The notes beneath the pieces are model-generated. The model did not search any database. It was not told where the DNA came from and saw only the letters and a program-made list of their open reading frames with translations. Positions 7,051 through 53,396 of a stretch of DNA of 64,000 nucleotides are shown here, one piece after another. Each line of letters starts with the position of its first letter. Positions within the stretch are counted from its first letter, which is position 1. The stretch is from an uncultured Sulfurospirillum sp. (GTDB taxonomy: Bacteria > Campylobacterota > Campylobacteria > Campylobacterales > Sulfurospirillaceae), in the NCBI GenBank assembly GCA_964466465.1, contig CAYXNJ010000003.1, forward strand, positions 960 to 64,959, given 5' to 3'. Both the position numbers and the translations under genes were made by a program.

Positions 7051-7455
7051 ATGAAAAAATACACACTATTACTTACTTCTCTCGCTCTATGTAGCGCTCT
7101 TCATGCCTCAGAGGCTGAAAAAGTCAACGCAATGGTAATGCTCAATATGGAAAATGGTTTGGCAAATATTCAAAAAGGCTTTTTATACAACAATCTTGAT
7201 TTGATTAAAAGTGGTGTTGATATTGTTCAAAAAGAGAATGCAACGTATCATAATCGAGAAGTTATAAAGTCGATTTTGCCTGATAATAAAAAACAGATGG
7301 AAAATTTAGCACTTATTACATCAAAACGTATTGAAAATGCTGCAGATGAAATGAAAAGCTACTTGGCACTTAAACAGATGAAAAAAGCTCATAATGCCTT
7401 TTCAGATATGGTAAATGCTTGTACAGATTGTCATACACTTATTCGTGGTTGGTAA
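7051..7455 (+). CDS. Periplasmic class II (cytochrome c'-like) monoheme cytochrome c
   Basis: Signal peptide, helical body, C-terminal CTDCH; GGAGG RBS before ATG 7051. Confidence 0.75.
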   Translation: MKKYTLLLTSLALCSALHASEAEKVNAMVMLNMENGLANIQKGFLYNNLDLIKSGVDIVQKENATYHNREVIKSILPDNKKQMENLALITSKRIENAADEMKSYLALKQMKKAHNAFSDMVNACTDCHTLIRGW

Positions 7456-7479
7456 GTAATTTACGTAGAAAAGAAGTAA

Positions 7480-7506
7480 AACGCTAAGAGAAAATCTCTT
7501 AGCGTT
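7480..7506. terminator. Bidirectional hairpin between convergent cytochrome c gene and accA
   Basis: AACGCTAAGAGA-aaa-TCTCTTAGCGTT. Confidence 0.7.
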
Positions 7507-8437
7507 CCTCATATGCTCCAATAGAAGTAATTCTCTCATAACGCTTTGCCATTCTCTCATCGGGACTCAGTTTATCAAGTTCTTCTAAAGATTTTAAGAA
7601 ATACTCTCCAAGTGCTTTGGCTGCGCTCTCTTTATCACGATGTGCTCCAATAAGTGGCTCATCAATAATTGCATCAATTAGGTTTAACTGGTGTAAGTCT
7701 TCAGCTGTAATTTTCATCGCTTTAGTCGCATTTTCTTGCTTACTTGGGTCATTCCATAAAATAGCGGCACAACCCTCTGGAGAAATAACAGAAAAGACAG
7801 AGTAACGCATCATAGCGACACGATCGCTCACACCAATAGCGAGCGCTCCACCACTTCCACCTTCTCCAATCACAACAGAAACACTTTTTGTGTTAAGACG
7901 ACTTAACTCAAAAAGGTTCTTAGCAATCGCTTCACTTTGCCCTCTCTCTTCTGCAGCAATACCAGGATAAGCACCTGGAGTGTCAATTAAGAAAAGAATT
8001 GGAAGATCAAATTTTTCTGCCATTTTAGCAATTCTAAGTGCTTTACGATAACCCTCGGGATGCGGCATACCAAAATTTCGTTTAATTTTATTTTTCGTAC
8101 CGCGACCTTTTTGCTCACCAATGACAAGCACTTTTCGTTCGCCAATATACCCGATGTAAGCAACAATGGCAGCATCATCCGCAAAGTTACGATCACCATG
8201 AATTTCGTAGCCGTCTTTTAAAAGAGCACGAATATAATCTAATGCGTATGGACGATCAGGATGACGTGCAAGTTGCAGTTTCTGGTATTCACTTAGATTT
8301 TTATAGGTTTTAGAAATTTCTTTTGCGAGTGTTTTTTCTAAAATTTCAACGGCATGGCTATCGCCTTTGATTTTGGCGTTAGAAATATCCTCATCAATTT
8401 GTTTAATTCCATTCTCAAAATCCAAATAAGTAGCCAC
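7499..8437 (-). CDS. accA: Acetyl-CoA carboxylase carboxyltransferase alpha
   Basis: [21 protein letters not shown] and GEGGSGGAL motifs. Confidence 0.97.
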
Positions 8438-23711: not shown

Positions 23712-23728
23712 ATTACAATTCGATTACA
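23712..23728 (-). promoter_or_regulatory. Reverse-oriented Pho-box-like direct repeat in the pit leader
   Basis: ATTACA-attcg-ATTACA (11-bp period) between a TATACT -10 (23683-23688) and the AAGGA RBS. Confidence 0.55.
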
Positions 23729-27863: not shown

Positions 27864-28688
27864 TTACCCAAAACGACCAGTGATGTAATCTTCGGTTTTC
27901 TTCTCTTTTGGATTAACAAAGAGTGTTTTAGCATCAGAGTATTCGATGAGATTTCCCATATGGAAAAACGCCGTATAATCGGCTATACGTGCGGCTTGTT
28001 GCATGTTGTGTGTGACGATAACAATCGTATAGTTCTTCTTCAAATCAAGCATCAAGTTCTCGATCTTCTCCGTTGAAATCGGATCAAGTGCGCTTGTTGG
28101 CTCATCCATCAAAATAACATCAGGCTCAACCGCAATCGCGCGTGCGATACACAAACGCTGTTGTTGTCCACCTGAGAGTGCCGTTCCAGGGTCTTTGAGT
28201 TTATCTTTGACTTCTTCCCAAAGGTTTGCCCCTTTTAAAGCTCGCTCGACCAGCTCATCGCACTCTTTACCCTTTTTAACGATGTCGTGCATCAAAGGTG
28301 CGTAAGCGATGTTCTCATAAATGCTTTTAGGAAAAGGATTTGGTTGTTGAAACACCATGCCCACACGTTTACGAACAGCAACCACGTCGATGTCTTTGTC
28401 ATAAATGTCATGCCCATCAATGCCGATGTAGCCTTCAACTCTACACCCTTGCACAAGGTCATTCATACGATTGATACAACGTAAAAAAGTAGATTTTCCA
28501 CAACCACTTGGTCCAATAAGCGCAGTGATTTTTTTGGTATAAATATCCATGTTAATAGAGTTTAAGGCTTGTTTTTCGCCATAAAAAAGGTTCAGATTTT
28601 TCACTTCAATTTTGACCGTTTCTTTAGCTGCATTGCTCTCTTCGCGATCCATCATTGCTGTATGTATAAAACCATTTTCCATTGTCAT
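27864..28688 (-). CDS. pstB: Phosphate ABC transporter ATPase
   Basis: [25 protein letters not shown] and DEPTSALDP motifs; TAATG coupling with pstA. Confidence 0.96.
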
Positions 28689-29860
28689 TACCACTTTCTT
28701 TCAAATTTTTTTCGTAAATAAATTGCCACGGCATTCAGAGATAACAAAAGCACCAACAAAACGATGATCGCTGCTGCCGTTCGCTCCAAATAGGCTTTTT
28801 CAGGCATCCCTGCCCATGTAAAGATTTGTGCAGGAAGCACGGTTGCCGCGTCACTAAAACTGGTCGCGGCATCGGGTACAAAGGCGATCATTCCTACGAT
28901 GATGAGGGGTGCTGTCTCACCGATAGCACGGGCTATGGAGATGATAGAGCCTGTCAAAATACCTGGCATCGCAACAGGTAAAACATGGTCGCGTACGATC
29001 TGCCATTTAGTCAGCCCAAGCCCAAAGCCTGCTTGACGAATACTGGCAGGAACAGACTTTAAAGCGGCTTTAGAGCTTACGATGATGACAGGCAAACTCA
29101 TCAAAGCCAACGTCATACCGCCTACGAGTGGAGAGCTTCTTGGTACGCCAAAGAAGTTGATGAAAATCGCCAAGCCTAAAAGACCAAATAAAATGGAAGG
29201 AATCGCTGCAAGGTTGTTGATATTGACTTCGATGATGTGGGTGAGTTTATTTTCTGTTGCAAACTCTTCAAGGTAAATCGCTGTCATAACACCGATAGGA
29301 AAAGCAATAGCAATGGTGACAATCATCGTAAGTAAACTTCCGATAATCGCAGAGTAAATACCTGAATTTTCAGGGATTTTGGAATCACCTGAGAGAAGGA
29401 AAAGCGTGTTGAATTTTAACTCCACTTTCCCATCATTTTTAAGCTCATCCACATACGCTCTATCTCTTTGTGACGTGCGAGACTCTTTGCCTTTAAGGTA
29501 CTGATCGACTTCAGAGTTGGCAAGCGCCCAAAACTCTTGTTTGGTATTCATCCATACTGGATTGGCTTTAATCAAAAGAGGAAGATCTCTTAGCCATGCA
29601 CGACTGATGATTTTGAGTTGTTTGCCATTTACCGCACCGTAAGGATTCTCTACAACCTCTTCGTTAATGTTGAGCTCTATTTTGACATACGTTTGCATAA
29701 AAGCAGGGTAGCCAGAACGTGCGATATCCACAAGGAAAAAGACCAAAAAAGAGATGGAAAAAACGATCGAGAAAATCGTAAGCCCTTTAAAAATAGCCGC
29801 TTTTTGGTTACGTCTTTTAATCTGTGGAATGTAAAAATAGTTGTCGTTTTTTTCTTGCAT
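28688..29860 (-). CDS. pstA: Phosphate ABC transporter permease
   Basis: [11 protein letters not shown] and ARAIGETAP motifs. Confidence 0.95.
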
Positions 29861-29871
29861 TGCTTAAGCCC

Positions 29872-31176
29872 TTAAAGTGTTGAAACTTTGTATTTTCTAT
29901 GGAAACTTCGGATGGTATTGACTGAGATGATGTTAATGACAAGGGTCACAACAAAAAGAACAAAACCCAGTGCAAACGCTGAGAGGGTCAACGGGTTGTT
30001 AAACTCTTGATCACCTGTGAGTGACTCTACGATTTTAACGGTTACGGTCGTCATATCTTCAAGAGGATTCCATGTCAAGTTTGGTCTAAGACCCGCTGCC
30101 ATAACAACGATCATCGTCTCACCAAGAGCACGAGAAACCGCCAATAAAATAGAAGCAATGATACCTGGCATCGCAGAAGGTAGAACAACAAACCGAATCG
30201 TTTCTGCTTTGTTCATACCTAAAGCATACGCACCATTACGCATATTTTGAGGCACAGAGCTGATGACATCATCGGAGAGTGAAGAGATAAAAGGAATAAT
30301 CATAACCCCCATGATGATACCGCACGAAAGGGCATTTTGGTACTGTGCTTCAATGCCAAAGAGTGCAAAAAACTTGACAATCGCAGGCGCAATGGTCAAA
30401 GCGGCAAAGAAGCCATACACCACCGTTGGAATGCCTGCTAAGATCTCTAAAAAAGGCTTCACTTGAGCCCTAAGTTTGGGCGTTGCGTACTCTGACATAA
30501 AAATAGCCGACATCAACCCGATGGGTACTGCTAAGATCATCGCCATAATGGTGATGTAAAATGTTCCTGCAAAGATAGGCACCGCACCAAATTTGGCTTG
30601 AGCACTCGCAGCGTCAGAACGTCCAGCACCTTCTAAGAAAGCCGTGTCAGGTGACCACTCGGTTCCAAAAAGAAAGTAGCTTACACTTTGGGTTTGAAAG
30701 AAATGCAGTGCTTCAAAAATGATGGAGAGCAAAATGCCAAATGTGGTCATCACTGAAATCAACGAAGCAAATAACAACATTCCTTTGATGAAATTCTCCA
30801 CACCATCGCGCGCTCTGGTTTTTGCTTCTACTTGTCTAAAAAAGATCCATAATGCAATAGCCCCTGCACTCAAAGCACCTGCTACAAGCACAAAAGGAGG
30901 AATGGCATTGATGCCAAAAAGATATAAAAATACTCCCACAAACCCTATCGTGATGATAGGAAGCCCTGTGTAAAGTGCGACAAACCAACCGTATTGGTCG
31001 GGTTGAGAGTGCATTTTAATACCTTTAGAGCGAATCGTGACAGCACGTGCTTTACCGATGATATAGCCTATAAACATCAGTGGAACAAGACCACCAAAAA
31101 AGATAAGATAGAGAGTTTGAGTGCTCACCAGAGTCCTTTGAATTAAAAGTGCAAGAGGCAAGTGCCTCTTGCTCAT
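29872..31176 (-). CDS. pstC: Phosphate ABC transporter permease
   Basis: LAGIPTVVYG and SRALGETM motifs. Confidence 0.95.
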   Translation of the reverse strand: MSKRHLPLALLIQRTLVSTQTLYLIFFGGLVPLMFIGYIIGKARAVTIRSKGIKMHSQPDQYGWFVALYTGLPIITIGFVGVFLYLFGINAIPPFVLVAGALSAGAIALWIFFRQVEAKTRARDGVENFIKGMLLFASLISVMTTFGILLSIIFEALHFFQTQSVSYFLFGTEWSPDTAFLEGAGRSDAASAQAKFGAVPIFAGTFYITIMAMILAVPIGLMSAIFMSEYATPKLRAQVKPFLEILAGIPTVVYGFFAALTIAPAIVKFFALFGIEAQYQNALSCGIIMGVMIIPFISSLSDDVISSVPQNMRNGAYALGMNKAETIRFVVLPSAMPGIIASILLAVSRALGETMIVVMAAGLRPNLTWNPLEDMTTVTVKIVESLTGDQEFNNPLTLSAFALGFVLFVVTLVINIISVNTIRSFHRKYKVSTL

Positions 31177-31190
31177 GTTACACGTAACGC

Positions 31191-32231
31191 TTAAGGTAAG
31201 ATGGTATGTTTCTTAACCATCTCATCGGTCAATTTGGTTTTAGCCAAAACAGCCGCTTGTACTTTTTTAAGATCTTCACTTGTCATAGGAACCAAACCGA
31301 TGGTTTTTAGAACACCTTTTTGACCTACCATTTTGTCATCTACATAAAGTTTAAAGAACTCATCCATGCCCTTCACTTCAGCTCTGTGAGCATTTTTAGC
31401 GTAGATGTAAAGGCTTCTTGAAATTGGGTATTTTCCACTTGAAATGTTCTCAGATGTACATGCGATACCATCGACTTGAGCACCATTGATTTTATCGCCA
31501 TTCTCTTCAAGGAAGCTGTATCCAAAGATACCAAATGCAGCCGTATCTTTTGTGAGTTTTTGAACGATTAAGTTGTCATTTTCACCCGCTGGTACAAAAA
31601 CACCGTCTTGACGGATTGCTTTGTACTTGCCTTTTTTGTCACCATACGCATCGAATTTTTTAGAAGCTGTTTCCATCACCATCTCATCAAAAGAGTCTCT
31701 TGTTCCTGATGTGGTTGGAGGACCGTAAACGGTGATTTTTCTATTGGGGAGTTTTGCGTCAATTTCATTCCATGTTTTGTACGGGTTTTTAATCAGTGAT
31801 TTGCCATCTTTACTTGGCACTTCTTCAGCAAGCGCTAAAAAGAGTTGTTCTTTGCTGAGTGCAATTTCGCCATTGCTTTTAGACTGAGCAACCGCGATAC
31901 CATCAAAACCGACCATCATACCAGTGATGTCAGTCACACCGTTTTTAACACATGTTTCAAACTCTTCCGCTTTAATAGGACGAGAAGCATTGGTAAAATC
32001 AGGAGTATCAAGGCCAGCACCTGCACAGAAAAGCTTCATACCGCCACCTGTTCCTGTTGATTCAACGACAGGGGTTTTATTGCCAGTTACTGCTTTAAAC
32101 TCTTCTGCAACATAACTTGTAAAAGGATAGACGGTTGAAGATCCAACAATTTTGATCTGATCTCTAGCAGCCGCAGTCGAACACAAAGCGGCAACACTTA
32201 AAAGCGACAGGGCGCATGTTTTGATAGTCAT
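31191..32231 (-). CDS. pstS: Phosphate-binding periplasmic protein
   Basis: IVGSSTVYP, STGTGGG, SGTRDSF and YPISRSLY motifs. Confidence 0.95.
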   Translation of the reverse strand: MTIKTCALSLLSVAALCSTAAARDQIKIVGSSTVYPFTSYVAEEFKAVTGNKTPVVESTGTGGGMKLFCAGAGLDTPDFTNASRPIKAEEFETCVKNGVTDITGMMVGFDGIAVAQSKSNGEIALSKEQLFLALAEEVPSKDGKSLIKNPYKTWNEIDAKLPNRKITVYGPPTTSGTRDSFDEMVMETASKKFDAYGDKKGKYKAIRQDGVFVPAGENDNLIVQKLTKDTAAFGIFGYSFLEENGDKINGAQVDGIACTSENISSGKYPISRSLYIYAKNAHRAEVKGMDEFFKLYVDDKMVGQKGVLKTIGLVPMTSEDLKKVQAAVLAKTKLTDEMVKKHTILP

Positions 32232-32264
32232 TTGAACACTCCATTTCTAAAATTTGGTAGTGTC

Positions 32265-32297
32265 ATTGTAAAAGAATTTGATTACAACTTGGTTACA
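32265..32297 (-). promoter_or_regulatory. Pho-box promoter of pstS
   Basis: TGTAAC-caagt-TGTAAT-N10-TACAAT. Confidence 0.75.
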
Positions 32298-37928: not shown

Positions 37929-39644
37929 CTAAGAGGCTTTGATATACCGTGCCTTTTTCGCCTCTTTGATTTTGGTGATGTCCACTAAAATGAAACTATC
38001 GACACAGTTCGCAAAATCTTTGTCGATGTTGAAGTCTAAAAAGCAAATGCCTCCCTCTTCGCACAGCTCAGTGTATTGTTTATACAGTGTTGGCACGCTC
38101 AGATCCATATGAGAAAGCTGCTCTTTAAGCACCGCAAAGTCCTCTTTATAGTCCTCTCCTTTGAAAAATGCCTGTGCTTCTTCTTTTTCAACCTTACTCA
38201 TAAAAAAGCCATTACGAGCACTCACCAACGCTTTGGGCGATGTAAAATAGAGCGAATAAAAGGTGATGATCAGATTTTTAGCGATCTTTGGATACACATC
38301 ACTGAGACTTACAGGCCCGTACATGTAACGAATATGCGGGTTTTTAAACAGATACGCCCCGATGCCCTGCCAGAGATAATCCAGCGCCCTTGTACCCCAA
38401 TAACGCGGCTGCACAAAGCTACGCCCTAACTCAATGGAGTTATGCAAGTACGGTGTAAACTCTGGAGTAAACTCAAATAAGGTTTGAGAGTAAAACCCTT
38501 CCACCCCAAAATACTCACTGATATAATTGGCTTCTCCGATGCGGTATGCTCCCACCACTTCAAGCTCTTCATCGTCCCAAAGCACGATGTGTTTATAGTG
38601 TTTATCAAAGGCATCCACATCTCTTTTAGAGCCTGTTCCCTCTTCGACTTTACGAAACGTAAACTCACGCAAGCGCCCTATCTCTTTCATCAAAATAGAA
38701 CCCGCCTCATACTCATAAAGATAGATCTTTTTGCCATCGCTGGTTTGTCCTAAAAGCGTTGATTTTTTGAGCTCTGCTCGTATGGCTTTACGCTCTTCGG
38801 GGTGTGCTATCGCCTTTTGGGTTGCAAAGATGCCCTTCTTGCCTCGACTGATTTTATAGAGATGCTTTTTAAGAAGATTAATCAGTGTTGTGTCGCCAAA
38901 ACCTGAATTTTGAAGCGTTTTATAGGTAATCATCTCGCCGATTTTAAAGCTAATGACTTTTGAGCGCTTCTTAAACATCTCACGCGCAAGCAAGAAGGTC
39001 GAGAGCTTTTTATTGATCATCGAAAGCGTGTAAAAAATGGGTGAATTTTTCGCATCAATGAAAACAGGTAACAGAGGCGAGTTGCTCTTTTGGGCAAACT
39101 TCAAAAAACCCTTTTTCCACTTCGCATCTTTGATGCCTGTAGGATGGGCACGAGAGACTTCACCAGAGGGAAAGACAATGAGCGCTTCATCATTTTCCAG
39201 CGCATCATACACCTTTTTGATGGACTCTTTGGCGGTTGTGCCACTCAGGTTGTCAATGGGAATTAAAATGTTGCTCAGTGGTTCTATCTGCATCAAAACA
39301 TCATTGGCTAAGACTTTCACATCGCTTCGTATCTCTTTGATGAGTGAGATCAGTGCTAACGCATCGAGTGCTCCTAAAGGGTGGTTTGCGATGATGATAA
39401 CGCGCCCAGAGGAAGGGATGTTGGCTTTATCTTTATTGGAAACGGTGTAGCCAAAGTTAAAATACTCCAACACCGCTTCCACAAAATCAAACCCTTTATA
39501 CGCCTCGCCATGGGTTAAAAAATCGTTTATCTCCTCTTGGTGCAGTAACTTTTTGAGAAGATACACAACGAAATTTCTCACCATACTTGGATAATAGGCA
39601 ATAGTGGGGTACTTGAGGCTTAACGTTTTTTCGACATCGACCAT
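37929..39644 (-). CDS. PlsC-type acyltransferase + GNAT (Acetyltransf_5) fusion; OlsF-like ornithine lipid synthase
   Basis: NHPLGALD (HX4D) and FPSGEVS in the N-half; EIGRLRE..F, VGAYR, ELGRSFV and LDYLWQGIG in the C-half; 571 aa. Confidence 0.75.
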   Translation of the reverse strand: MVDVEKTLSLKYPTIAYYPSMVRNFVVYLLKKLLHQEEINDFLTHGEAYKGFDFVEAVLEYFNFGYTVSNKDKANIPSSGRVIIIANHPLGALDALALISLIKEIRSDVKVLANDVLMQIEPLSNILIPIDNLSGTTAKESIKKVYDALENDEALIVFPSGEVSRAHPTGIKDAKWKKGFLKFAQKSNSPLLPVFIDAKNSPIFYTLSMINKKLSTFLLAREMFKKRSKVISFKIGEMITYKTLQNSGFGDTTLINLLKKHLYKISRGKKGIFATQKAIAHPEERKAIRAELKKSTLLGQTSDGKKIYLYEYEAGSILMKEIGRLREFTFRKVEEGTGSKRDVDAFDKHYKHIVLWDDEELEVVGAYRIGEANYISEYFGVEGFYSQTLFEFTPEFTPYLHNSIELGRSFVQPRYWGTRALDYLWQGIGAYLFKNPHIRYMYGPVSLSDVYPKIAKNLIITFYSLYFTSPKALVSARNGFFMSKVEKEEAQAFFKGEDYKEDFAVLKEQLSHMDLSVPTLYKQYTELCEEGGICFLDFNIDKDFANCVDSFILVDITKIKEAKKARYIKAS

Positions 39645-39670
39645 GAGTGCTCCTTACTTTTTTTGGGTTG

Positions 39671-39703
39671 ATTATAAGCGGAGCTCATTACGATACGGTA
39701 ACG
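39671..39703 (-). promoter_or_regulatory. Pho-box promoter of the OlsF-like gene
   Basis: CGTTAC-cgtat-CGTAAT-N10-TATAAT. Confidence 0.7.
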
Positions 39704-39718: not shown

Positions 39719-39751
39719 TGTTACCATATTGTAATGATTTCAAACTACAAT
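39719..39751 (+). promoter_or_regulatory. Pho-box promoter of phoU-phoB-phoR
   Basis: TGTTAC-catat-TGTAAT-N10-TACAAT. Confidence 0.75.
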
Positions 39752-39777
39752 GATACAAACTATTGTAAGGAAAATGT

Positions 39778-40446
39778 ATGCTTCAAAAATATGAAGAAAG
39801 ACTCATAGAAATCAAAAAAATGCTCGTTGATTTGGGTTCTGAGATCACAATGGCAAGTGAAAAAACCCTCAGTGGTATGGAGAGTTTGGACATTGCTCGT
39901 TTTGATTCAGCCAAAACCCTTCTTAAAAACATTGAAAATCAAGCCAATGCGATTGACAATGAAATTGTCGTTACACTCGCTCTTTTTGGTCCAGAAGCGA
40001 AAGACTTGCGCAAAATGGTGGCGTACCTTAAAATCACCAATGAACTGGTCAAAATCGCTGAAAATATCCGAAGCTTTAGTAAGCGTATGGCATTGCACCT
40101 TCAAGGCGATGTACCGTTTGTCTCGTTGCATGAGTACTCAACACATTTGTGCAAAACTGCTATCAAAGCCGTTACTTTAGCCATTAGTACCATTGAAGTC
40201 GCAGACCCTGAAACACTGGAAGATACGTATAGAAAAGTCAAAGTTGAAGAGAGCAAGAGTGATGATTTGTACTCTATTTTAGAGAAAAACATCCTCAGCG
40301 ACATTGCAAAGATGATCGACCAATCGGCTGATTTTATTCAGATTTTAAGTACCATGCGAAAATTAGAGCGCATGGCAGATCGTAGCGTTAACATCGTACA
40401 ATTGATGATCTTCGCGCGCATTGGCGGAGAGATGAAAACCTATTAG
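39778..40446 (+). CDS. phoU: Phosphate signalling protein PhoU
   Basis: Two PhoU repeats (IDNE...P.AKDLR; LERMADR..NI). Confidence 0.9.
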   Translation: MLQKYEERLIEIKKMLVDLGSEITMASEKTLSGMESLDIARFDSAKTLLKNIENQANAIDNEIVVTLALFGPEAKDLRKMVAYLKITNELVKIAENIRSFSKRMALHLQGDVPFVSLHEYSTHLCKTAIKAVTLAISTIEVADPETLEDTYRKVKVEESKSDDLYSILEKNILSDIAKMIDQSADFIQILSTMRKLERMADRSVNIVQLMIFARIGGEMKTY

Positions 40447-40453
40447 GAACCTA

Positions 40454-41125
40454 ATGAAACAGACTATTTTGATTATTGAAGACGAAGAGGATTTGCTGGA
40501 GCTTTTAGAGTACCATCTTCAAAAAGAGGGGTATGAGACTCTGGGTTTTTTGAGCACTAAAAATGTTGAAAAATGCCTTCAAGAAGAGCCGATTGATCTT
40601 CTCATTGTTGATCGTAACCTCCCTGGTGTTGAAGGTAGCGAGTTTGTCGAAGCGCTGCGTAAAAAAGGTTTTTCGCAAGCGGTTATTTTTGTAACGGCAA
40701 AAGACAGCGATGCAAACATTGAAGAGGGTTTTATGCGCGGTTGTGATGACTACGTCACAAAACCTTACAATATGAAAGAGCTGCTTCTTCGTATCAAAGC
40801 TATTTTAGCACGCACCTCGCCTGTGAGCAAAAGCACACTCTCTTACCGTGACCTTATACTTGATCTTGAAGCACACCGTTTACAGGTTGACTCTAAAGAG
40901 GTTGAACTCACGAAATTAGAGTTTGACCTACTTCGTACCTTGATCGAGAACAAAAGCTCCGTTTTGAGTCGTGAGTTTTTACTCGAACATGTCTGGAAAA
41001 GCGATGACTTTTTCCAAGACAAAACGGTCAATGTCGCTATCAATCGTCTCAAAGCCAAAATAGACCCAACCAAAGAGAAAGAGTACATCAAATCCATTTG
41101 GGGAGTAGGATACACGTTATGCTAA
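40454..41125 (+). CDS. phoB: OmpR/PhoB-family response regulator
   Basis: IIEDE, IVDRNLPG, DDYVTKP and winged helix (LTKLEFDLL, KSIWGVGY); located between phoU and the kinase. Confidence 0.82.
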   Translation: MKQTILIIEDEEDLLELLEYHLQKEGYETLGFLSTKNVEKCLQEEPIDLLIVDRNLPGVEGSEFVEALRKKGFSQAVIFVTAKDSDANIEEGFMRGCDDYVTKPYNMKELLLRIKAILARTSPVSKSTLSYRDLILDLEAHRLQVDSKEVELTKLEFDLLRTLIENKSSVLSREFLLEHVWKSDDFFQDKTVNVAINRLKAKIDPTKEKEYIKSIWGVGYTLC

Positions 41126-42519
41126 TGCTGCATCAGCACATCATTCGAGGACTGCTTATCCTTTTTATCGGCACACTGCTTCTCTCTGGCATTGTGAGTT
41201 ATTTCACCATTAAAAGCAACGATATGGAACGGTATCAAGCCTCACTAGAATCGCATATTAAAATTATCCAATACCAACTCCCCCAAGTCAAAGACCGCGA
41301 AGCGTTTGCCAAAGTCATCAAAGAGAGTACTGGCATACGTTTTACGTTAATTAACGAATCAGGTGTCGTTTTAGTCGATAGCGACAAAGACAATGAAACC
41401 ATGGATAACCACTCAAGACGTGAAGAGATCATCATGGCGCAAAAGATGGAATTTGCTCATGCTGTGCGTTTTTCTGATTCGGTGAAAAGTAACTTTTTAT
41501 ACGTTGCACACCGCTTTAAACAGGACGATCATTTTCTGTTTATACGTCTTGCTACCAACATTGACACCATCATGCACAACTTTTATGACCTCTGGATAAA
41601 GCTTACCATCATCTTTAGCCTCAGCATCCTTACGGGTCTTTATGGTGCGTATATTTTCAGTCAAAAGATTCGCTATGAGATCGATAAAATCGTAGGAAAT
41701 CTACAGCAAATTGCAGACAAAGAGTACAAGATCACCCTCTCCTCACACTTTAGTTTGGAGTTTTTTGAGATAGCCAATTATCTTAAAAAATTGGCTGCAA
41801 AGCTTGAAAAACGCGCCAAGCAAAAGCGCAAATATACCGCTAAAATCAAACTCATTTCGCAACAACGAAGTGATGTTATCTCTGCCATTAGCCATGAGTT
41901 TAAAAACCCTATCGCATCCATCATGGGGTATGCACAAACGCTTTTGGATGACCCCAATGCCAATACCCAAATCAAAGAGCGCTTTTTAGGTAAAATCGTT
42001 CAAAACGCCCAGAAAATCTCTGGTATGATTGATCGCCTGACCCTAACCACCAAGTTTGAAAATGGCGACTTCAACACCCAAAACACTACGTTTGATGTGG
42101 TTAAGATGACCCAAGAAATCGCACAAACGTTCAGGGAAAAACACCATACCCGCTCTATTGAGTGCATGCTTCCTGAGAGCTATATGATTACCGCTGATCG
42201 TACAATGATCGAGATCGTCATCTCAAACCTTATCGACAATGCACTCAAATACTCCGATGAAACCGTTCGCGTTATACTTGAAAATGACGCCTTGCATGTT
42301 AAAGACACTGGTGTGGGCATCAAAGAAGAGGACATTGAAAAAGTAACCCAAAAGTTCTACCGTTCCAACTCACACTCATGGGACAACTCGATGGGACTAG
42401 GTCTTGCCCTTGTCAATTACATCCTCAAACTGCATAACACCACACTAGAGATACAAAGTAGCTTAGGTGTAGGATCTGATTTTTCGTTTAAATTGCCTTC
42501 AAACAATACTGTATTATGA
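41119..42519 (+). CDS. phoR: PhoR-type sensor histidine kinase
   Basis: MDNHSRREEI periplasmic motif, SHEFKNPI, NLIDNALKY, DTGVGI and GLGL motifs. Confidence 0.82.
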   Translation: MLMLHQHIIRGLLILFIGTLLLSGIVSYFTIKSNDMERYQASLESHIKIIQYQLPQVKDREAFAKVIKESTGIRFTLINESGVVLVDSDKDNETMDNHSRREEIIMAQKMEFAHAVRFSDSVKSNFLYVAHRFKQDDHFLFIRLATNIDTIMHNFYDLWIKLTIIFSLSILTGLYGAYIFSQKIRYEIDKIVGNLQQIADKEYKITLSSHFSLEFFEIANYLKKLAAKLEKRAKQKRKYTAKIKLISQQRSDVISAISHEFKNPIASIMGYAQTLLDDPNANTQIKERFLGKIVQNAQKISGMIDRLTLTTKFENGDFNTQNTTFDVVKMTQEIAQTFREKHHTRSIECMLPESYMITADRTMIEIVISNLIDNALKYSDETVRVILENDALHVKDTGVGIKEEDIEKVTQKFYRSNSHSWDNSMGLGLALVNYILKLHNTTLEIQSSLGVGSDFSFKLPSNNTVL

Positions 42520-42578: not shown

Positions 42579-42998
42579 ATGTACAATATGGGTGAACCGC
42601 GCATTAAAATCGTGGCTATGCCAAAAGACACGAACCCCGCTGGCAATATTTTTGGTGGGTGGATTATGTCACAAATCGACATCGCAGGAAGCCTTGCAGC
42701 ACGAGATCTTAATGTAGGACGTGTGGTAACTGTCGCTGTCAATTCTATGGAATTTCGAGAAGCCGTCAAAGTCGGTGACGTGCTAAGCTGTTACGCTAAA
42801 ATCATCAAAGTGGGAACAAGCTCCATTACGACACAAGTGGAAGTCAATGCAGAACGCTCTGTTGAGGGTGCTCACCGCTGTTTACATGTCACCAGTGCGG
42901 TCATTACATACGTTAACGTAACGCCTGAGGGCAAAAAAACGCCCATCCCTTATACGGAAAATGAACTGCTTGCTCTTGGAATCGAACGAAAGCAATAG
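42579..42998 (+). CDS. Acyl-CoA thioesterase (YciA/hotdog family)
   Basis: MPKDTNPAGNIFGGWIMSQID motif. Confidence 0.9.
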   Translation: MYNMGEPRIKIVAMPKDTNPAGNIFGGWIMSQIDIAGSLAARDLNVGRVVTVAVNSMEFREAVKVGDVLSCYAKIIKVGTSSITTQVEVNAERSVEGAHRCLHVTSAVITYVNVTPEGKKTPIPYTENELLALGIERKQ

Positions 42999-49695: not shown

Positions 49696-50394
49696 TTATG
49701 CCTTTGGATAGGCTTTTTCGAGTTTTTTATACAGTGCATCGACTGTTGGAGCAGACTCGCCTTGAAGGAGAGAGAGCATCACTTCGTTATCTTCTTTGCC
49801 GTTCCATACTTTGATGTAATGTCCTTCTTTATAACCATGATCTTGACGGAATTGGTTGAGAACATTTTTTGCCACATAGAATTTGTACAATACTTTTAGG
49901 TTGATGCCACACTTACGTGAAAGCGTAAAGTATTCGCGTAAAAGCCCATCAAAAAGGTCTATTTCAAACCCTGTTGTATCGTGGATAATATTTTCAATAT
50001 CGTTTACTAACTCCATTGGATCAGCTGAACTTGGAGAGAGTGGTTCTTTCGTGAACGCCTCAAACCCTTGAACATCCAACACATCTAAAACCAACTGGTC
50101 AATGTCGCCTTTTCCATTAGTTTTATAATCTTCCAATAATAGACTCATAATAAAATGCCAGATATCAACAATCTCAACGGTGACATTGTCCCAATCGGTC
50201 TCTTTGTTAATGTTCTTCCAATGTTTCCAACTAAAACTATCAATGAGTTCTGCGCACTCCATATAGATACATCGCTTCCAGTTAATCATGCGGTTATGTT
50301 TGGTGTATCCATTTTCCCAGCCGATGCCATTGGTTTCATCGTTTAATTTTTGCTGGAGTAAAAACATCTGCGTTAAATAATCTTTGCTTGTCAT
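49696..50394 (-). CDS. dut: Dimeric (all-alpha) dUTPase
   Basis: ECAELIDSFSWKHWK, EIVDIWHF and KNVLNQFRQDHGY motifs. Confidence 0.9.
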   Translation of the reverse strand: MTSKDYLTQMFLLQQKLNDETNGIGWENGYTKHNRMINWKRCIYMECAELIDSFSWKHWKNINKETDWDNVTVEIVDIWHFIMSLLLEDYKTNGKGDIDQLVLDVLDVQGFEAFTKEPLSPSSADPMELVNDIENIIHDTTGFEIDLFDGLLREYFTLSRKCGINLKVLYKFYVAKNVLNQFRQDHGYKEGHYIKVWNGKEDNEVMLSLLQGESAPTVDALYKKLEKAYPKA

Positions 50395-50416: not shown

Positions 50417-51190
50417 CTAGATTATACTTTGTTGTGACATAAATGTCAAAATGGACTCGCTGCCTTTGCGATAACCTAGCTCAAAACATGCTTCTATCTG
50501 CCCAAAAGTAAACAATCCAAAATCATCTAACGAAGAATCGCTAATGCACAGATCACTCTGTTCGATCTGCCGTTTGGATGAAGCCAAGATGGAGAGATAA
50601 ATCGCCCGTTCTAAACTAGAGAAGATATGCCTTTTGGGTTGAGTACGAGGAGGAAAAAGATTGATACTTACCACAGGATAAGAAAGCCCTAAAAGCGGCT
50701 CTACGGGTAAATTGTCCATAAATCCCCCATCAATCAGTGTGTAATTTTCATACGCGATGGGGCGAAAAATAGGAATGAGCGCTGAGCTTGCAATGGCAAG
50801 TTTTATCGTCTCGCCTTCAGAAAAACGTACGATTTCGCCACTGGGCAAATCCACACACGTGACAAACGTAGGAATTTTCATCTGCTCTAAGCGAGCCACA
50901 GGTGCTATCTCTTTTAAAATAGCTGCTTTTTCGTTGATGCAAAGAAGCCCTTTACGAAAGTAGTTAAACTGGAACACCTTACGAAATGCTCTACTTTTAA
51001 ACAAACGAAACATATCAAAGGCACTCACCCCAGAGCCTACACTCACCGCGATAACCGCGCCAATACTTGTACCCGAAACGGCGGCTATTTCCACATTGTG
51101 TCGCTCAAGTGCGGCGATGACACCTAGATGAAAAGCCCCACGTGCTGCGCCTCCTGAGAGTGCTAAAGAGATCTTCAATGCCCCAGCCAT
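50417..51190 (-). CDS. Patatin-like phospholipase
   Basis: SGGAARG, GTSIG (GxSxG) and DGG motifs. Confidence 0.9.
   Translation of the reverse strand: MAGALKISLALSGGAARGAFHLGVIAALERHNVEIAAVSGTSIGAVIAVSVGSGVSAFDMFRLFKSRAFRKVFQFNYFRKGLLCINEKAAILKEIAPVARLEQMKIPTFVTCVDLPSGEIVRFSEGETIKLAIASSALIPIFRPIAYENYTLIDGGFMDNLPVEPLLGLSYPVVSINLFPPRTQPKRHIFSSLERAIYLSILASSKRQIEQSDLCISDSSLDDFGLFTFGQIEACFELGYRKGSESILTFMSQQSII
50421..50449 (-). promoter_or_regulatory. Consensus sigma70 promoter for dut inside the patatin 3' end
   Basis: TTGACA-17 bp-TATAAT. Confidence 0.65.
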
Positions 51191-51948
51191 CGTATAATCC
51201 TAAATTCACCCTCATAGGTTTCTACAATGGCAGTACATGACTCCACCCAATCGCCGCAATTAAGGTATTTAATGCCCTCAATATCGCGTATCTCCGCCTT
51301 GTGAATATGTCCACAAATCACGCCATCAAAGTGGTGTCGTTTGGCATGTTCACTTAAAATCGCCTCAAAATCGGTGATAAAAGAGACCGAGCTTTTGACA
51401 TGATCTTTCACATACTTTGAAAGCGACCAGTGGCTATGGTAACGAAGCTTTTTGCGCCACCAATTGAGCCATTGATTGATATTGAGTAAGAGGTCATACC
51501 CCAAATCACCTAAGATGGCAAGCCAGCGTTTTGTCATCGTCACCGAGTCAAAAAAATCGCCATGCGTAATGTAGAAACGCCCTTCTTTAAGGCTTTTATA
51601 CTCACATTCATCGACAACAACAATGTGATCACCCAAACCTAAAGGCAAAAAAGAGCGCAAAAATTCATCATGATTGCCTGTAATGTAAAAGACATTAGTG
51701 CCTTTTCTAGCTTTTCGTAAAATCTTTTGGATGACATCGGAGTGGGATTGCGCCCATTTAATTTTGCGTTTAATCGCCCAACCATCAATGACATCACCGA
51801 CAAGATAGAGGTTTTCACAGTGTGTAAATTTTAAAAATTCTAAAAGCTCCTCCGCTTGGGAAAACCGTGTTCCCAAGTGAAGGTCGGAGATAAAGATGGA
51901 GCGAAAAGCAATTGGGTCTTCATCCCCTAAAAATTGGTATTTGGTCAT
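51175..51948 (-). CDS. PlcP-like metallophosphoesterase (LpxH-like fold; probable phospholipase C)
   Basis: SDLHLG, GDVIDGW, QKILRKARKG, GNHDE, HGD.FD, GHIH and N.GDW motifs. Confidence 0.72.
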   Translation of the reverse strand: MTKYQFLGDEDPIAFRSIFISDLHLGTRFSQAEELLEFLKFTHCENLYLVGDVIDGWAIKRKIKWAQSHSDVIQKILRKARKGTNVFYITGNHDEFLRSFLPLGLGDHIVVVDECEYKSLKEGRFYITHGDFFDSVTMTKRWLAILGDLGYDLLLNINQWLNWWRKKLRYHSHWSLSKYVKDHVKSSVSFITDFEAILSEHAKRHHFDGVICGHIHKAEIRDIEGIKYLNCGDWVESCTAIVETYEGEFRIIRWLGH

Positions 51949-53342
51949 TTGTGTTTATCACTATCTCCAAAAATATCATCGGCAAAGTGAGAGAATTTAC
52001 CACGCACCGATTTATCGAGCTCTATCGCAAAAAGCGAGATGTGTGTTTGCTCTTTTTTGGTCTGTTTCAAAAGTGACGTCAAACCGTTGTTAAAGCGGTT
52101 TAGGTACATGTTGTCAATTTGGCGGTTTGAGCCAATCACAATCGCTTTACAGTTGTTATCCAGACGCGATAAAATAAGCTGAGTCGTGTTGTTTGAACTG
52201 TTTTGCCACTCATCTAGGATGACGATGGCATTAGAGAGCGTTCGACCCCTCGCCTCACCTGGCCAGAGCTTTTCGATGTTGTATTTGGTCATCAGCTCTT
52301 GCACTTTTTTCTCGATAGCTACTTGCGGTTCTTGCGTATTGTCACGTTTTTTCATTCGTTTTTTAGCGATAAACTCCAAAGTATCATACAGCGCCATATT
52401 GTAAATTCTAAACTTCTCATCGTTGCCTGAAAGATAACCTACATCCGCTCCTTTATCGACACTCTCAATGGAGTTACGCACATAGACGATTTTCTCGTAA
52501 CTGCCTTTGGTAACGAGCCTCATCGCTGCGACAAATGCCATCAAGGTTTTACCACTACCTGCACGTGCATCGATGACGTGAATGTCATACATGTTAGAGA
52601 GCAGTGCTTTCATAAAAAACTTCTGTTTGAGGTTGATCGGTTTTACTTCCAATCCTCTAAAGTCTAACTCTTCATTGAGCATATGGATGATGCCACCAGG
52701 AGAGATGATGGCATGTTCTGAATTTCCATCTGGGCTTATAAACTCATAGCAGTAGTTTCCACTTTTATACTCAGGGTCATACTCCATAATCAGCTTTTTA
52801 TCCAGCGTATTAAACAACGCTGAGTCAACAGGAAGCTGTTTGACAAACTCAAACTCTGGCACATCGCTTCTATCTTCTCTTAAAGACTCAACCGTAACAT
52901 TGTAAAAAAGCCCAAACATACGTGCGTAAACATCTAAAGAAAGAAAAATGACCTTGTAGTCTGGATAGTACTCTTGCGCACCTGAAGCGACCTCTAAGAT
53001 GCGTTTGTCGTTGGATTCATTGATGAATTGTGAGTCAATGTCTGAAGAGTAAAGTGTCTTTGAGAAAAGATGAATCGCTATATCTTCTTCATAGCGCATC
53101 TTCACCACGCGATAAAGTTCTCCGCTATCGACTTCTTCGACTTTACACGAAGCAAGCATACGTGCGAAACTTCTGGCTTGGTAGCCAAGTTCCGTGAAGT
53201 TCTTTTTAAAATCTTCCAGCTCTATAAGCACCGTCTCGGGAATCACAATGATGTTGTTTCCGCCATCACACAACTCTTTGATAAAATTGGTATTGTGCAA
53301 GATAATGTTCGTATCGAGCACATAAACTTTATTGACTGACAT
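51945..53342 (-). CDS. PIN-PhoH (PhoH2/YlaK-like) protein
   Basis: N-terminal PIN (VLDTNII, NDKRIL); C-terminal PhoH ATPase (RAGSGKT, RGRTL, LDEWQN); start moved to ATG 53342, downstream of the promoter. Confidence 0.87.
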   Translation of the reverse strand: MSVNKVYVLDTNIILHNTNFIKELCDGGNNIIVIPETVLIELEDFKKNFTELGYQARSFARMLASCKVEEVDSGELYRVVKMRYEEDIAIHLFSKTLYSSDIDSQFINESNDKRILEVASGAQEYYPDYKVIFLSLDVYARMFGLFYNVTVESLREDRSDVPEFEFVKQLPVDSALFNTLDKKLIMEYDPEYKSGNYCYEFISPDGNSEHAIISPGGIIHMLNEELDFRGLEVKPINLKQKFFMKALLSNMYDIHVIDARAGSGKTLMAFVAAMRLVTKGSYEKIVYVRNSIESVDKGADVGYLSGNDEKFRIYNMALYDTLEFIAKKRMKKRDNTQEPQVAIEKKVQELMTKYNIEKLWPGEARGRTLSNAIVILDEWQNSSNNTTQLILSRLDNNCKAIVIGSNRQIDNMYLNRFNNGLTSLLKQTKKEQTHISLFAIELDKSVRGKFSHFADDIFGDSDKHK

Positions 53343-53363
53343 CCCACTTCCTTTCATGCAACA

Positions 53364-53396
53364 ATTGTATGCAAACATTATATCAACTTGGTAACA
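53364..53396 (-). promoter_or_regulatory. Pho-box promoter of the PIN-PhoH/PlcP/patatin operon
   Basis: TGTTAC-caagt-TGATAT-N10-TACAAT; 14 of 17 box positions match the pstS box. Confidence 0.62.

What the first reader, a model, noticed from the sequence alone, without database searches (positions are those of the whole stretch)
50417..53396. Pho-box operon PIN-PhoH / PlcP-like phospholipase C / patatin: candidate phospholipid-stripping system paired with OlsF
Seen: three overlapping genes behind a Pho-box promoter. The middle protein has GNHD rather than the GNRD of LpxH and the W...QK.LRKARKG segment. The third has intact patatin GxSxG and DGG motifs. Established: PlcP releases phosphate headgroups and DAG in P-starved alphaproteobacteria and usually pairs with a glycosyltransferase or BtaAB that reuses the DAG. 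Inference: no DAG-using enzyme is adjacent here. PlcP plus patatin could dismantle phospholipids to fatty acids, which are rebuilt into ornithine lipids by the separately Pho-controlled OlsF-like enzyme. I do not know of this remodelling route being described in Campylobacterota.
Basis: partly seen in the sequence, partly recalled or inferred. Interest (0 to 1): 0.75.

Follow-up and report, generated by a model that had tools for sequence, protein, structure and literature searches.

The report
Phosphate-starvation phospholipid-dismantling operon (phoH2–plcP–patatin)
A Sulfurospirillum-type bacterium carries a three-gene operon behind a phosphate-starvation promoter: an RNA helicase/nuclease, a PlcP-type phospholipase C that databases label as the lipid A enzyme LpxH, and a patatin lipase. 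It most likely strips phosphate from the cell's own membrane lipids when phosphate is scarce, a known strategy seen here in a new gene arrangement and an unstudied phylum.

Summary
Three translationally coupled minus-strand genes, PIN-PhoH2, a GNHD metallophosphoesterase and an intact patatin, sit behind a PhoB-type box. The same box and spacing (TGTWACC-N4-TGTAAT, N10, TAYAAT) precede pstS, olsF and phoU-phoB-phoR in this window.

The middle protein is a PlcP/"LpxH2"-family member, not LpxH. It is 49-58% identical to proteins of Burkholderia, Pseudomonas and others that sit in canonical plcP-agt operons. It is 21% identical to E. coli LpxH and scores far below the LpxH model cut-offs.

In Campylobacterota the patatin lies directly downstream of plcP in 26 of 45 loci. 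In other lineages it does so in 0 of about 100. The Pho box recurs upstream of plcP in 24 of 44 loci. Relatives join plcP and patatin with olsF, an Agt-like glycosyltransferase and phoH2 in single clusters.

The specific route, in which patatin replaces a DAG-using enzyme and feeds fatty acids to OlsF, is not. Patatin often co-occurs with Agt-like genes, and olsF clusters exist without it.

No expression or enzyme data exist. I rate this a new variant of a known system, of moderate interest.

The parts
53364..53396 (-). Pho-box promoter of the operon. Two 7-bp direct repeats with a 4-bp spacer (TGTTACC AAGT TGATATA, 53380-53396), then 10 bp, then the -10 hexamer TACAAT (53364-53369).
   Evidence: It has the same geometry as the pstS, olsF and phoU promoters of this window. 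Equivalent boxes lie 37-48 nt upstream of plcP in other Campylobacterota.
51945..53342 (-). phoH2, encoding an N-terminal PIN nuclease domain and a C-terminal PhoH P-loop ATPase (465 aa from the ATG at 53342; the ORF itself extends to 53378).
   Evidence: Pfam PIN_4 at 4.9e-25 and PhoH at 1.8e-41. The best NCBIfam hit is RNA 5'-3' helicase PhoH2, but below cut-off. The ribosome-binding site and start were read.
51175..51948 (-). plcP-like gene: an LpxH2/PlcP-family metallophosphoesterase, predicted to be a cytoplasmic, membrane-active phospholipase C (257 aa).
   Evidence: It has GNHD. It scores 46 and 41 bits against LpxH model cut-offs of 134 and 190. It is 49-58% identical to plcP-agt operon proteins. 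The predicted fold is nearest to LpxH.
50417..51190 (-). Patatin-like lipid acyl hydrolase (257 aa, no signal peptide), translationally coupled to plcP.
   Evidence: Pfam Patatin at 88 bits. GGxR, GxSxG and DGG are invariant in 17 homologues. The AF2 model has pLDDT 85.7 and TM 0.80 to PlpD. The PDB profile hit to PlpD is 1.7e-36.
50421..50449 (-). Downstream boundary of the operon: a perfect sigma-70 promoter (TTGACA-17-TATAAT) inside the 3' end of the patatin gene, serving the dUTPase gene (49696-50394).
   Evidence: dUTPase equivalog at 354 bits.
37929..39703 (-). olsF (bifunctional ornithine lipid synthase, 37929-39644) with its own Pho-box promoter (box 39687-39703, -10 at 39671-39676).
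   Evidence: NCBIfam orn_lipid_OlsF scores 845.8 bits against a 620 cut-off.
39719..42519 (+). phoU-phoB-phoR regulatory operon with a Pho-box promoter (box 39719-35, -10 at 39746-51), divergent from olsF.
   Evidence: best hits are PhoB and PhoR.
27864..32297 (-). pstSCAB high-affinity phosphate transporter with the best Pho box in the window (TGTAACCAAGTTGTAAT, 32281-32297).

Best explanation
This is a PhoB/PhoR-controlled operon, phoH2-plcP-patatin, of a Sulfurospirillum-like bacterium.

Proposed mechanism:
1. Under phosphate starvation, phospho-PhoB binds the TGTWACC-N4-TGTAAT box 10 bp upstream of the -10 hexamer and switches the operon on. This is inferred from sequence.
2. The same signal switches on pstSCAB, phoU-phoBR and olsF.
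3. The middle enzyme is a cytoplasmic, membrane-peripheral PlcP-type metallophosphoesterase. It cuts the phospho-headgroup off the cell's own PE and PG, giving diacylglycerol plus a soluble phosphomonoester whose phosphate is recycled. This is inferred from family membership.
4. The translationally coupled patatin is a Ser-Asp lipid acyl hydrolase. I think it most likely deacylates the lipid products of that reaction (DAG, or lyso- and monoacyl species). That would keep DAG from accumulating and release acyl chains. This is the least certain step.
5. OlsF builds phosphorus-free ornithine lipid to refill the membrane.
6. In relatives that also carry an Agt-like GT4 gene, part of the DAG is instead glycosylated.
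7. PhoH2 (PIN RNase plus RNA helicase) is a co-regulated Pho-regulon member. It probably acts on RNA rather than on lipid.

The database label for the middle gene, 'UDP-2,3-diacylglucosamine diphosphatase LpxH', is most likely a family-level misannotation.
For: Pho regulation in the window:
- The composite motif occurs four times in 64 kb, at pstS, olsF, phoU and phoH2, against 0.03 expected.
- A fifth core site sits at a Pit transporter gene.

Pho regulation across the phylum:
- A box with at most 2 mismatches lies within 150 nt upstream of plcP in 24 of 44 Campylobacterota loci, and of the Agt-like gene in 18 of 46. It lies upstream of the internal patatin gene in 0 of 24. Background is 1.5% per window.
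- It also lies upstream of pstS in another MAG, L146.

PlcP identity:
- The protein has GNHD and the PlcP-specific blocks WSLSxY[LV]KxxVK and GDWVES, shared with Burkholderia, Pseudomonas and Phenylobacterium proteins.
- It is 49-58% identical to proteins whose neighbour is a GT4 gene in 89 of 107 non-campylobacterotal loci.
- These include Burkholderia cepacia-complex orthologues of the experimentally validated PlcP BCAL2364 (bioRxiv 10.1101/2023.05.30.542800).
- Validated PlcPs are only 46-47% identical to each other (PMC8528852).
- The NJ tree nests the Campylobacterota clade inside the plcP-agt family, with E. coli LpxH as a distant outgroup.
- The P. aeruginosa LpxH2 does not complement E. 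coli lpxH (PMC3087551, PMC6286764).

Linkage to P-free lipid genes:
- L007 carries olsF-plcP-patatin-agt-phoH2 behind six phased box half-sites.
- L157 and L158 carry plcP-agt-phoH2-olsF.

Patatin:
- The catalytic motifs are invariant and the model has a PlpD-like fold.
- The gene overlaps plcP.
- It lies directly downstream of plcP in 26 of 45 Campylobacterota loci and in 0 of about 100 elsewhere.

Context: ornithine lipids are made by at least one Campylobacterota species (PMC9789136).
Against: - There are no expression, binding, enzymatic or lipid data. No RNA runs hold this sequence.
- The second half-site of the phoH2 box deviates from the consensus (TGATAT rather than TGTAAT).
- The loci used for the statistics are phylogenetically related, so the P values overstate independence.
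- The patatin's substrate is not deducible from sequence. Its nearest solved relative, PlpD, is a phospholipase A-type enzyme.
- Patatin co-occurs with DAG-consuming Agt-like genes, which argues against wholesale DAG destruction.
- Opiyo et al. found neither LpxH nor LpxI in H. pylori and C. jejuni (PMC3087551). I could not identify the phylum's UDP-diacylglucosamine hydrolase, so a lipid A role is not formally excluded.
- The enzyme is unusually conserved for an accessory gene, at 67-70% identity across families.
- The AF2 model of the MPE is only moderate, with pLDDT 68.7.
Confidence: 0.72

Rival explanations
1. Housekeeping lipid A enzyme. [quoted passage not shown]
For: PGAP and JGI name the family LpxH. 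LpxH structures are the nearest solved folds. Opiyo et al. list only a weak 'LpxH2' hit, with no LpxH or LpxI, for H. pylori and C. jejuni. The protein is strongly conserved within the phylum. One locus (L021) has a KdsD-like gene downstream.
Against: - It has GNHD rather than GNRD. It scores 46 and 41 bits against LpxH cut-offs of 134 and 190.
- It is 21% identical to E. coli LpxH but 49-58% identical to plcP-agt proteins of bacteria that have their own LpxH or LpxI.
- The cap domain is not conserved, and Pa LpxH2 fails to complement (PMC6286764, PMC3087551).
- It lies under a Pho box across the phylum.
- It is linked to olsF, agt and phoH2, not to lpx genes.
- The only Campylobacter protein among the 120 nearest relatives of the C. 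geochelonis copy is that copy itself. Its nearest relatives are Sulfurospirillum proteins, so the gene is patchy in a genus that always makes lipid A.
Confidence: 0.07
2. Same Pho-regulated operon, but the patatin acts first or in parallel as a phospholipase A/lysophospholipase on intact phospholipids. It would make lysolipids and glycerophosphodiesters, rather than clearing DAG after PlcP.
For: The nearest solved relative is the phospholipase A-type PlpD. The best NCBIfam hit is RssA. Co-occurrence with DAG-using Agt-like genes is easier to reconcile with a patatin that does not consume DAG.
Against: Gene order and translational coupling place it downstream of plcP. Sequence alone does not separate PLA, lysoPLA and DAG/MAG lipase specificities within the patatin fold. 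No glycerophosphodiesterase is seen in the operon.
Confidence: 0.25
3. Anti-phage defence or toxin module: a PIN/ATPase sensor with phosphoesterase and patatin effectors that destroy membrane or nucleic acid on infection.
For: Patatin effectors are common in CBASS and similar systems. There are weak patatin hits to CBASS phospholipase models at 42-44 bits. PIN and P-loop helicase domains recur in defence systems.
Against: PADLOC gives no hit for the MPE. It gives only generic family-level hits for the other two proteins. The genes are conserved at 60-90% identity, in syntenic housekeeping contexts, across a whole phylum. They sit under Pho boxes next to olsF and agt. None of this is typical of defence islands.
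Confidence: 0.03
4. Scavenging of external phospholipids as a phosphorus source rather than remodelling of the cell's own membrane.
For: It would fit Pho control. Bacteria are known to catabolise environmental phospholipids (PMC10132767 title and abstract, seen).
Against: Neither the MPE nor the patatin has a signal peptide or transmembrane segment, judged from the N-termini read. Characterised PlcPs act on endogenous lipids (PMC4796936, PMC8528852).
Confidence: 0.05

Closest known systems
PlcP, the phosphate-starvation phospholipase C of the LpxH2 clade (S. meliloti SMc00171, Phaeobacter MED193_17359, P. aeruginosa PA3219, B. cenocepacia BCAL2364)
   Same: It shares the metallophosphoesterase five-block motif with GNHD and the PlcP-specific sequence blocks. 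It is 49-58% identical to plcP-agt operon proteins. It has a Pho-box promoter, is linked to phosphorus-free-lipid genes, and has no signal peptide.
   Different: Here it lies behind phoH2 and is translationally coupled to a patatin lipase, an arrangement I did not find described. No Agt or BtaAB gene is adjacent in this genome fragment. The nearest P-free lipid gene is olsF, 12 kb away. The phylum has not been characterised experimentally for this system. I could not align the protein directly to the four characterised sequences, only to their inferred orthologues.
LpxH (UDP-2,3-diacylglucosamine diphosphatase of lipid A synthesis)
   Same: It belongs to the same superfamily and has the same overall fold, with a helical insertion. 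LpxH structures are the top Foldseek hits. It carries the same database name.
   Different: It has GNHD rather than GNRD and is 21% identical to E. coli LpxH. It scores far below the equivalog cut-offs, and the cap sequence is not conserved. It is Pho-regulated and linked to olsF and agt rather than to lpx genes.
Bacterial patatin-like lipases PlpD (P. aeruginosa) and RssA/YchK (E. coli)
   Same: It has the Ser-Asp dyad, the GGxR oxyanion loop and a minimal patatin fold (TM 0.80 to PlpD).
   Different: It is a stand-alone 257-aa cytoplasmic protein with no autotransporter or POTRA module. It forms a Campylobacterota-restricted subfamily fused into a plcP operon. Its substrate is unknown.
PhoH2 (PIN-PhoH RNA helicase/RNase, e.g. 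mycobacterial PhoH2) and E. coli PhoH (Pho regulon psiH)
   Same: It has the PIN plus PhoH P-loop architecture and a Pho-box promoter.
   Different: It scores well below the PhoH2 equivalog cut-off (106 against 680 bits). It recurs next to plcP, agt and olsF in Campylobacterota. No functional link to lipids is known.
OlsF-dependent ornithine lipid synthesis under low phosphate (Serratia proteamaculans, Vibrio cholerae, Desulfovibrio alaskensis)
   Same: An equivalog-level OlsF sits behind a Pho box, as reported for S. proteamaculans (PMC12971839).
   Different: Here, and in relatives, olsF is genomically coupled to plcP. It is in the same operon in L007, L016, L157, L158 and L186.

Membership tests
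PlcP / LpxH2 clade | Metallophosphoesterase five-block motif with GNH(D/E) in block 3 (PMC3087551) | tested here: met
   The blocks are SDLHLG, VGDVIDGW, GNHD, HGD and GHIH. They are invariant in 14 homologues.
PlcP / LpxH2 clade | Closer to characterised PlcPs than to LpxH (the literature uses about 35-57% identity, or E below 1e-40) | tested here: met
   It is 53% identical to the B. arboris protein in a plcP-agt operon, which is an orthologue of the validated BCAL2364. It is 49% identical to the Pseudomonas plcP-agt protein and 21% to E. coli LpxH. The four characterised sequences themselves were not available for alignment.
PlcP / LpxH2 clade | Pho-box promoter or induction by phosphate starvation | tested here: inconclusive
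   The in-silico box is strong and conserved. Expression and PhoB binding cannot be tested with these tools, and no RNA data exist.
PlcP / LpxH2 clade | Genomic association with genes for phosphorus-free lipids (agt, btaAB, ols) | tested here: met
   This is met at family level. GT4 is adjacent in 8 of 23 MPE-anchored Campylobacterota loci. olsF shares an operon with plcP in L007, L016, L157, L158 and L186. In the window itself olsF lies 12 kb away and no agt is present.
PlcP / LpxH2 clade | Phospholipase C activity on PE, PG or PC, yielding DAG | not testable with these tools
   This needs an enzyme assay or lipidomics.
LpxH | Arg in block 3 (GNRD) | tested here: not met
   The protein has GNHD at residues 91-94.
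LpxH | Score at or above the curated equivalog cut-off (NF003743, TIGR01854) | tested here: not met
   It scores 46.2 against 134 and 41.4 against 190 bits.
LpxH | Complements E. coli lpxH and hydrolyses UDP-2,3-diacylglucosamine | not testable with these tools
   The literature reports that P. aeruginosa LpxH2 fails to complement (PMC3087551, PMC6286764).
LpxH | Present in all lipid-A-making relatives | tested here: inconclusive
   C. geochelonis is the only Campylobacter among the 120 nearest homologues. More distant copies in other Campylobacter or Helicobacter species could not be excluded.
Patatin-like phospholipase | GGxR/K oxyanion loop, GxSxG nucleophile and DG[GA] catalytic Asp | tested here: met
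   The motifs are GGAARG (13-18), GTSIG (40-44) and DGG (154-156). All are invariant in 17 sequences.
Patatin-like phospholipase | Patatin fold and a Pfam score above the gathering threshold | tested here: met
   PF01734 scores 88.1 against 27.7. The AF2 model has pLDDT 85.7 and TM 0.80 to PlpD.
PhoH2 | N-terminal PIN domain fused to a C-terminal PhoH ATPase | tested here: met
   PIN_4 covers residues 19-166 and PhoH covers 245-463.
PhoH2 | NCBIfam equivalog cut-off (NF053827) | tested here: not met
   It scores 105.7 against 680 bits. The architecture matches, but it is not the curated equivalog.
OlsF | NCBIfam equivalog cut-off, and an N-terminal O-acyltransferase plus a C-terminal OlsB-like N-acyltransferase | tested here: met
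   It scores 845.8 against 620 bits. Pfam finds Acyltransf_2 plus Acetyltransf_5.
PhoB-type Pho box | Two 7-bp direct repeats 11 bp apart, replacing the -35 element about 10 bp upstream of the -10 hexamer, and present at pst genes | tested here: met
   Four promoters share identical geometry, including pstS and phoU-phoBR. The box also precedes pstS in L146. Protein binding was not testable.

The most novel reading that the evidence does not exclude
PlcP and its translationally coupled patatin form a two-enzyme unit, confined to Campylobacterota, that takes membrane phospholipids all the way down to phospho-headgroup, glycerol and free fatty acids. In genomes without a DAG glycosyltransferase, such as this Sulfurospirillum fragment, the released acyl chains would be re-used by the co-regulated OlsF. 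That would be a DAG-independent phospholipid-to-ornithine-lipid remodelling route not described before.
Probability: 0.2. Interest if true: 0.65.

Novelty: new variant of a known kind. Interest (0 to 1): 0.5.

Why it matters
PlcP-mediated lipid remodelling is a major way bacteria cut their phosphorus quota. It also affects antibiotic tolerance and virulence in Pseudomonas and Burkholderia. Four points follow from this work.

1. The system, with a recognisable Pho box, is widespread in Campylobacterota (Sulfurospirillum, Arcobacteraceae, Sulfurovum, Sulfurimonas relatives). These bacteria are abundant in sulfidic, often phosphate-poor habitats, and the response has not been tested in them.

2. 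A lineage-specific patatin partner and a recurrent PhoH2 partner are candidate new components of the pathway.

3. A whole family annotated as LpxH in public databases is probably misnamed. The enzyme for the UDP-diacylglucosamine hydrolase step of lipid A synthesis in this phylum, which includes Helicobacter and Campylobacter, was not identified here. The 2010 survey (PMC3087551) lists no LpxH or LpxI for it.

4. The work yields a testable Pho-box consensus for the phylum.

Tried and rejected
- A genome scan with the Campylobacter geochelonis protein used over-specific peptide patterns. It returned only beta- and alphaproteobacterial relatives and gave no information on Campylobacter. A protein search replaced it.
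- Literature searches for the identity of the LpxH step in Helicobacter and Campylobacter found nothing beyond Opiyo et al. 2010.
- The original PlcP paper (PMC2806695) is not held. I therefore could not align to SMc00171 directly and used synteny-defined orthologues instead.
- No RNA-seq run contains this sequence. It comes from an anaerobic-digester metagenome, so no expression test was possible.
- PADLOC gave no defence-system assignment, so I set the defence reading aside.
- The AF2 model of the MPE was only moderate, with pLDDT 68.7. I used it only for fold-level comparison, not for active-site or cap analysis.
- My first upstream-motif count was wrong because of a coordinate shift. One search corrects it.
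- An unknown 157-aa ORF upstream of the patatin in L145 has no similarity to the MPE and no Pfam hit.
- I considered that the Pho box serves only phoH2, with plcP and patatin as passengers. I rejected this because in other genera the box lies directly upstream of plcP.

Full report
**What is there**

The window is a roughly 40% GC fragment of a Sulfurospirillum-like genome. The nearest named proteins are from Sulfurospirillum spp., and the exact sequence occurs in an anaerobic-digester metagenome.

At 50417-53396 the minus strand carries three ORFs:
- a PIN_4 + PhoH protein;
- a calcineurin-like metallophosphoesterase (MPE);
- a patatin (Pfam).

The first stop and second start overlap as ATGA. 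The second and third genes overlap by 16 nt.

The ORF's first ATG (53378) lies inside the promoter. The likely start is the ATG at 53342, behind an AGGAAG site. The dUTPase gene that follows has its own perfect TTGACA-17-TATAAT promoter within the end of the patatin gene. The transcription unit therefore holds three genes.

**The promoter**

The window also encodes several phosphate genes:
- pstSCAB at 27864-32231;
- an equivalog-level OlsF at 37929-39644, scoring 846 against 620 bits;
- phoU-phoB-phoR at 39778-42519, divergent from olsF.

Reading their upstream regions shows one shared architecture. Two 7-bp direct repeats with a 4-bp spacer (TGTWACC-N4-TGTAAT) are followed by exactly 10 bp and then a TAYAAT -10 hexamer. 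This is the geometry of the enterobacterial Pho box, CTGTCAT-N4-CTGTCAT (consensus as cited in PMC8528852).

A pattern built from the three phosphate promoters alone, allowing 2 mismatches, finds exactly one more site in the 64 kb. That site is the phoH2 promoter, against 0.03 expected by chance.

With the core alone, 5 of 7 hits in the window lie at phosphate genes. The fifth is an inverted site just upstream of a PHO4/Pit transporter gene.

**What the middle protein is**

It scores 46 and 41 bits against the two LpxH equivalog models, whose cut-offs are 134 and 190. It matches LpxH structures only at E of about 1e-5 by sequence. LpxH is nevertheless the nearest solved fold for a moderate AF2 model.

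Opiyo et al. (PMC3087551) define an 'LpxH2' clade by GNH(D/E) in place of GNRD. They place the S. meliloti and P. aeruginosa proteins in it. These match in size and gene context the proteins later characterised as PlcP, but the equation is mine and no paper I read states it. They note that the P. aeruginosa LpxH2 does not complement E. coli lpxH. A 2018 review adds that the LpxH cap domain is not conserved in LpxH2 (PMC6286764).

A genome scan found relatives at 49-58% identity in Burkholderia, Paraburkholderia, Thiobacillus, Pseudomonas, Phenylobacterium and others. All are proteobacterial groups in which LpxH or LpxI is reported to do this step (PMC4807358).

In 89 of 107 such loci a GT4 glycosyltransferase is adjacent. 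This is the canonical plcP-agt arrangement (PMC4796936, PMC8528852). The set includes Burkholderia cepacia-complex species, whose plcP-agt-dagK operon has been validated experimentally (bioRxiv 10.1101/2023.05.30.542800).

Characterised PlcPs are only 46-47% identical to each other, so the window protein lies well inside the family. The alignment shows PlcP-specific blocks that E. coli LpxH lacks, at 21% identity overall. An NJ tree nests a single Campylobacterota clade inside the plcP-agt family.

**Comparative context in Campylobacterota**

- The MPE is 60-94% identical across Sulfurospirillum, Arcobacteraceae, Sulfurovum, Sulfurimonadaceae and a Helicobacteraceae MAG.
- A patatin gene lies directly downstream, usually overlapping, in 26 of 45 Campylobacterota loci. 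It does so in none of about 100 loci from other lineages.
- The patatin subfamily itself appears confined to this phylum, with 430 hits whose named members are all Campylobacterota.
- Agt-like GT4 genes, olsF and phoH2 recur next to plcP in shuffled orders. Examples are olsF-plcP-patatin-agt-phoH2 in L007, plcP-agt-phoH2-olsF in L157 and L158, and plcP-agt-olsF in L186.
- The divergent arrangement patatin<-plcP | agt-> occurs in many Arcobacteraceae. phoH2 and plcP are divergent in L010.
- A Pho-box-like site with at most 2 mismatches lies within 150 nt upstream of plcP in 24 of 44 loci and of the Agt-like gene in 18 of 46. It lies upstream of the internal patatin gene in 0 of 24. The background is 1.5% per window (first pass).
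- L007 has six phased 11-bp half-sites ahead of its cluster. L146 has tandem boxes ahead of pstS.
- These loci are related to each other, so the nominal P values (1e-21 to 1e-32) overstate independence. The pattern nevertheless spans several families.

**The patatin**

The catalytic motifs are invariant. The AF2 model is confident, with pLDDT 85.7. It superposes on the P. aeruginosa lipase PlpD at TM 0.80, and the PDB profile hit to PlpD is 1.7e-36.

Neither the patatin nor the MPE has a signal peptide or membrane segment, judged from the sequences. Both should therefore act from the cytoplasmic side on the cell's own membrane. Sequence cannot decide whether the patatin prefers DAG/MAG, lysolipids or diacyl phospholipids.

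**Rivals**

The main rival is that this is the phylum's LpxH. Points in its favour:
- the database names;
- the fold;
- high conservation;
- the absence of LpxH and LpxI in H. pylori and C. jejuni in Opiyo's table.

Points against it:
- every membership feature of LpxH that could be tested fails;
- the gene lies under a Pho box and travels with olsF, agt and phoH2;
- the closest relatives of the C. geochelonis copy are Sulfurospirillum proteins, and no other Campylobacter appears among the top 120. The gene is thus patchy in a genus that always makes lipid A;
- the weak HMM-only 'LpxH2' hits of Opiyo et al. in C. jejuni and H. pylori are what a non-orthologous metallophosphoesterase would give. 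This last point is my inference.

I could not identify the true UDP-diacylglucosamine hydrolase of the phylum, so I leave this rival at about 7%.

A defence-system reading finds no support in PADLOC and conflicts with the conservation and regulation seen. Scavenging of external lipid conflicts with the predicted cytoplasmic location.

The central interpretation is supported by homology, synteny and promoter evidence: a Pho-controlled PlcP-type phospholipid-stripping system functionally paired with OlsF.

The specific inference is not supported by comparative data. In fact patatin frequently co-occurs with Agt-like genes, and olsF-containing clusters exist without it. That route remains possible for this particular genome, which shows no Agt-like gene in the 64 kb available.

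**Novelty**

PlcP, OlsF and Pho control of both are known. OlsF homologues in Campylobacterota are noted in a 2026 review (PMC12971839). Ornithine lipids have been seen in Sulfurimonas gotlandica (PMC9789136). Agt homologues in Epsilonproteobacteria were noted in 2016 with the remark that their role 'remains to be determined' (PMC5193443).

I found no bacterial paper linking PlcP with a patatin or PlcP with Campylobacterota. The conserved plcP-patatin coupling, the recurrent phoH2 partner, the phylum-wide Pho-box consensus and the likely LpxH misannotation are the new elements. I classify it as a new variant of a known kind, with interest about 0.5.

Noticed in passing
window 23712-23728 (minus strand) and 23741-25348 (+): A Pho-box-like core, TGTAATCGAATTGTAAT (1 mismatch), lies in inverted orientation 13-29 nt upstream of a PHO4/Pit-family phosphate transporter gene. 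PhoB may repress the low-affinity transporter during starvation.
   Followed up: partly
window 50421-50449 (minus strand): A perfect consensus sigma-70 promoter (TTGACA-17-TATAAT, 12 of 12) is embedded in the last codons of the patatin gene. It drives the epsilon-type dimeric dUTPase gene at 49696-50394.
   Followed up: yes
window 42579-42998 (+): A 4HBT-family thioesterase gene follows phoR after a 59-bp gap. It may be co-transcribed with phoU-phoB-phoR, which could be a further lipid or acyl link to the Pho regulon.
   Followed up: no
window 1390-3285 (minus strand) and neighbours 524-4012: A Mu-type transposase (rve plus Mu-transpos_C) lies at the start of the window in a lower-GC stretch (0.34-0.36). 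This is probably a Mu-like transposable element or prophage end.
   Followed up: no
L007 1090-1448: Six phased 11-bp half-sites (GGTTACA / TGTAGTT / TGTTATC) are followed by TATAAT and two tiny hydrophobic ORFs of about 35-43 aa. These lie ahead of the olsF-plcP-patatin-agt-phoH2 cluster.
   Followed up: partly
L145 3855-7526 (Sulfurospirillum sp. MAG): Here the patatin gene is preceded by an unknown 157-aa ORF with no Pfam hit and no similarity to the MPE, instead of plcP. It is divergent from agt-phoH2.
   Followed up: partly
L003 (Campylobacter geochelonis) 6001-8166: plcP-patatin is followed by a HAD hydrolase gene, and no Pho-box-like site lies upstream. The protein's nearest relatives are Sulfurospirillum proteins rather than Campylobacter proteins, which suggests horizontal acquisition.
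   Followed up: partly
Family-wide (P0002, P0017, P0058, P0076, P0089 and others): NCBI and JGI name this Campylobacterota family 'UDP-2,3-diacylglucosamine diphosphatase / LpxH', although it fails the LpxH equivalog models. This is probably a systematic misannotation.
   Followed up: yes
window 20544-22403 (minus strand): A 619-aa protein matches DUF7897 end to end at 746 bits. Its function is unknown.
   Followed up: no
L021 7033-7995 (Helicaobacteraceae MAG): In this Helicobacteraceae MAG locus, plcP-patatin is followed by a SIS + CBS protein (KdsD/KpsF-like arabinose-5-phosphate isomerase). This was the only LPS-related neighbour seen in any locus.
   Followed up: no
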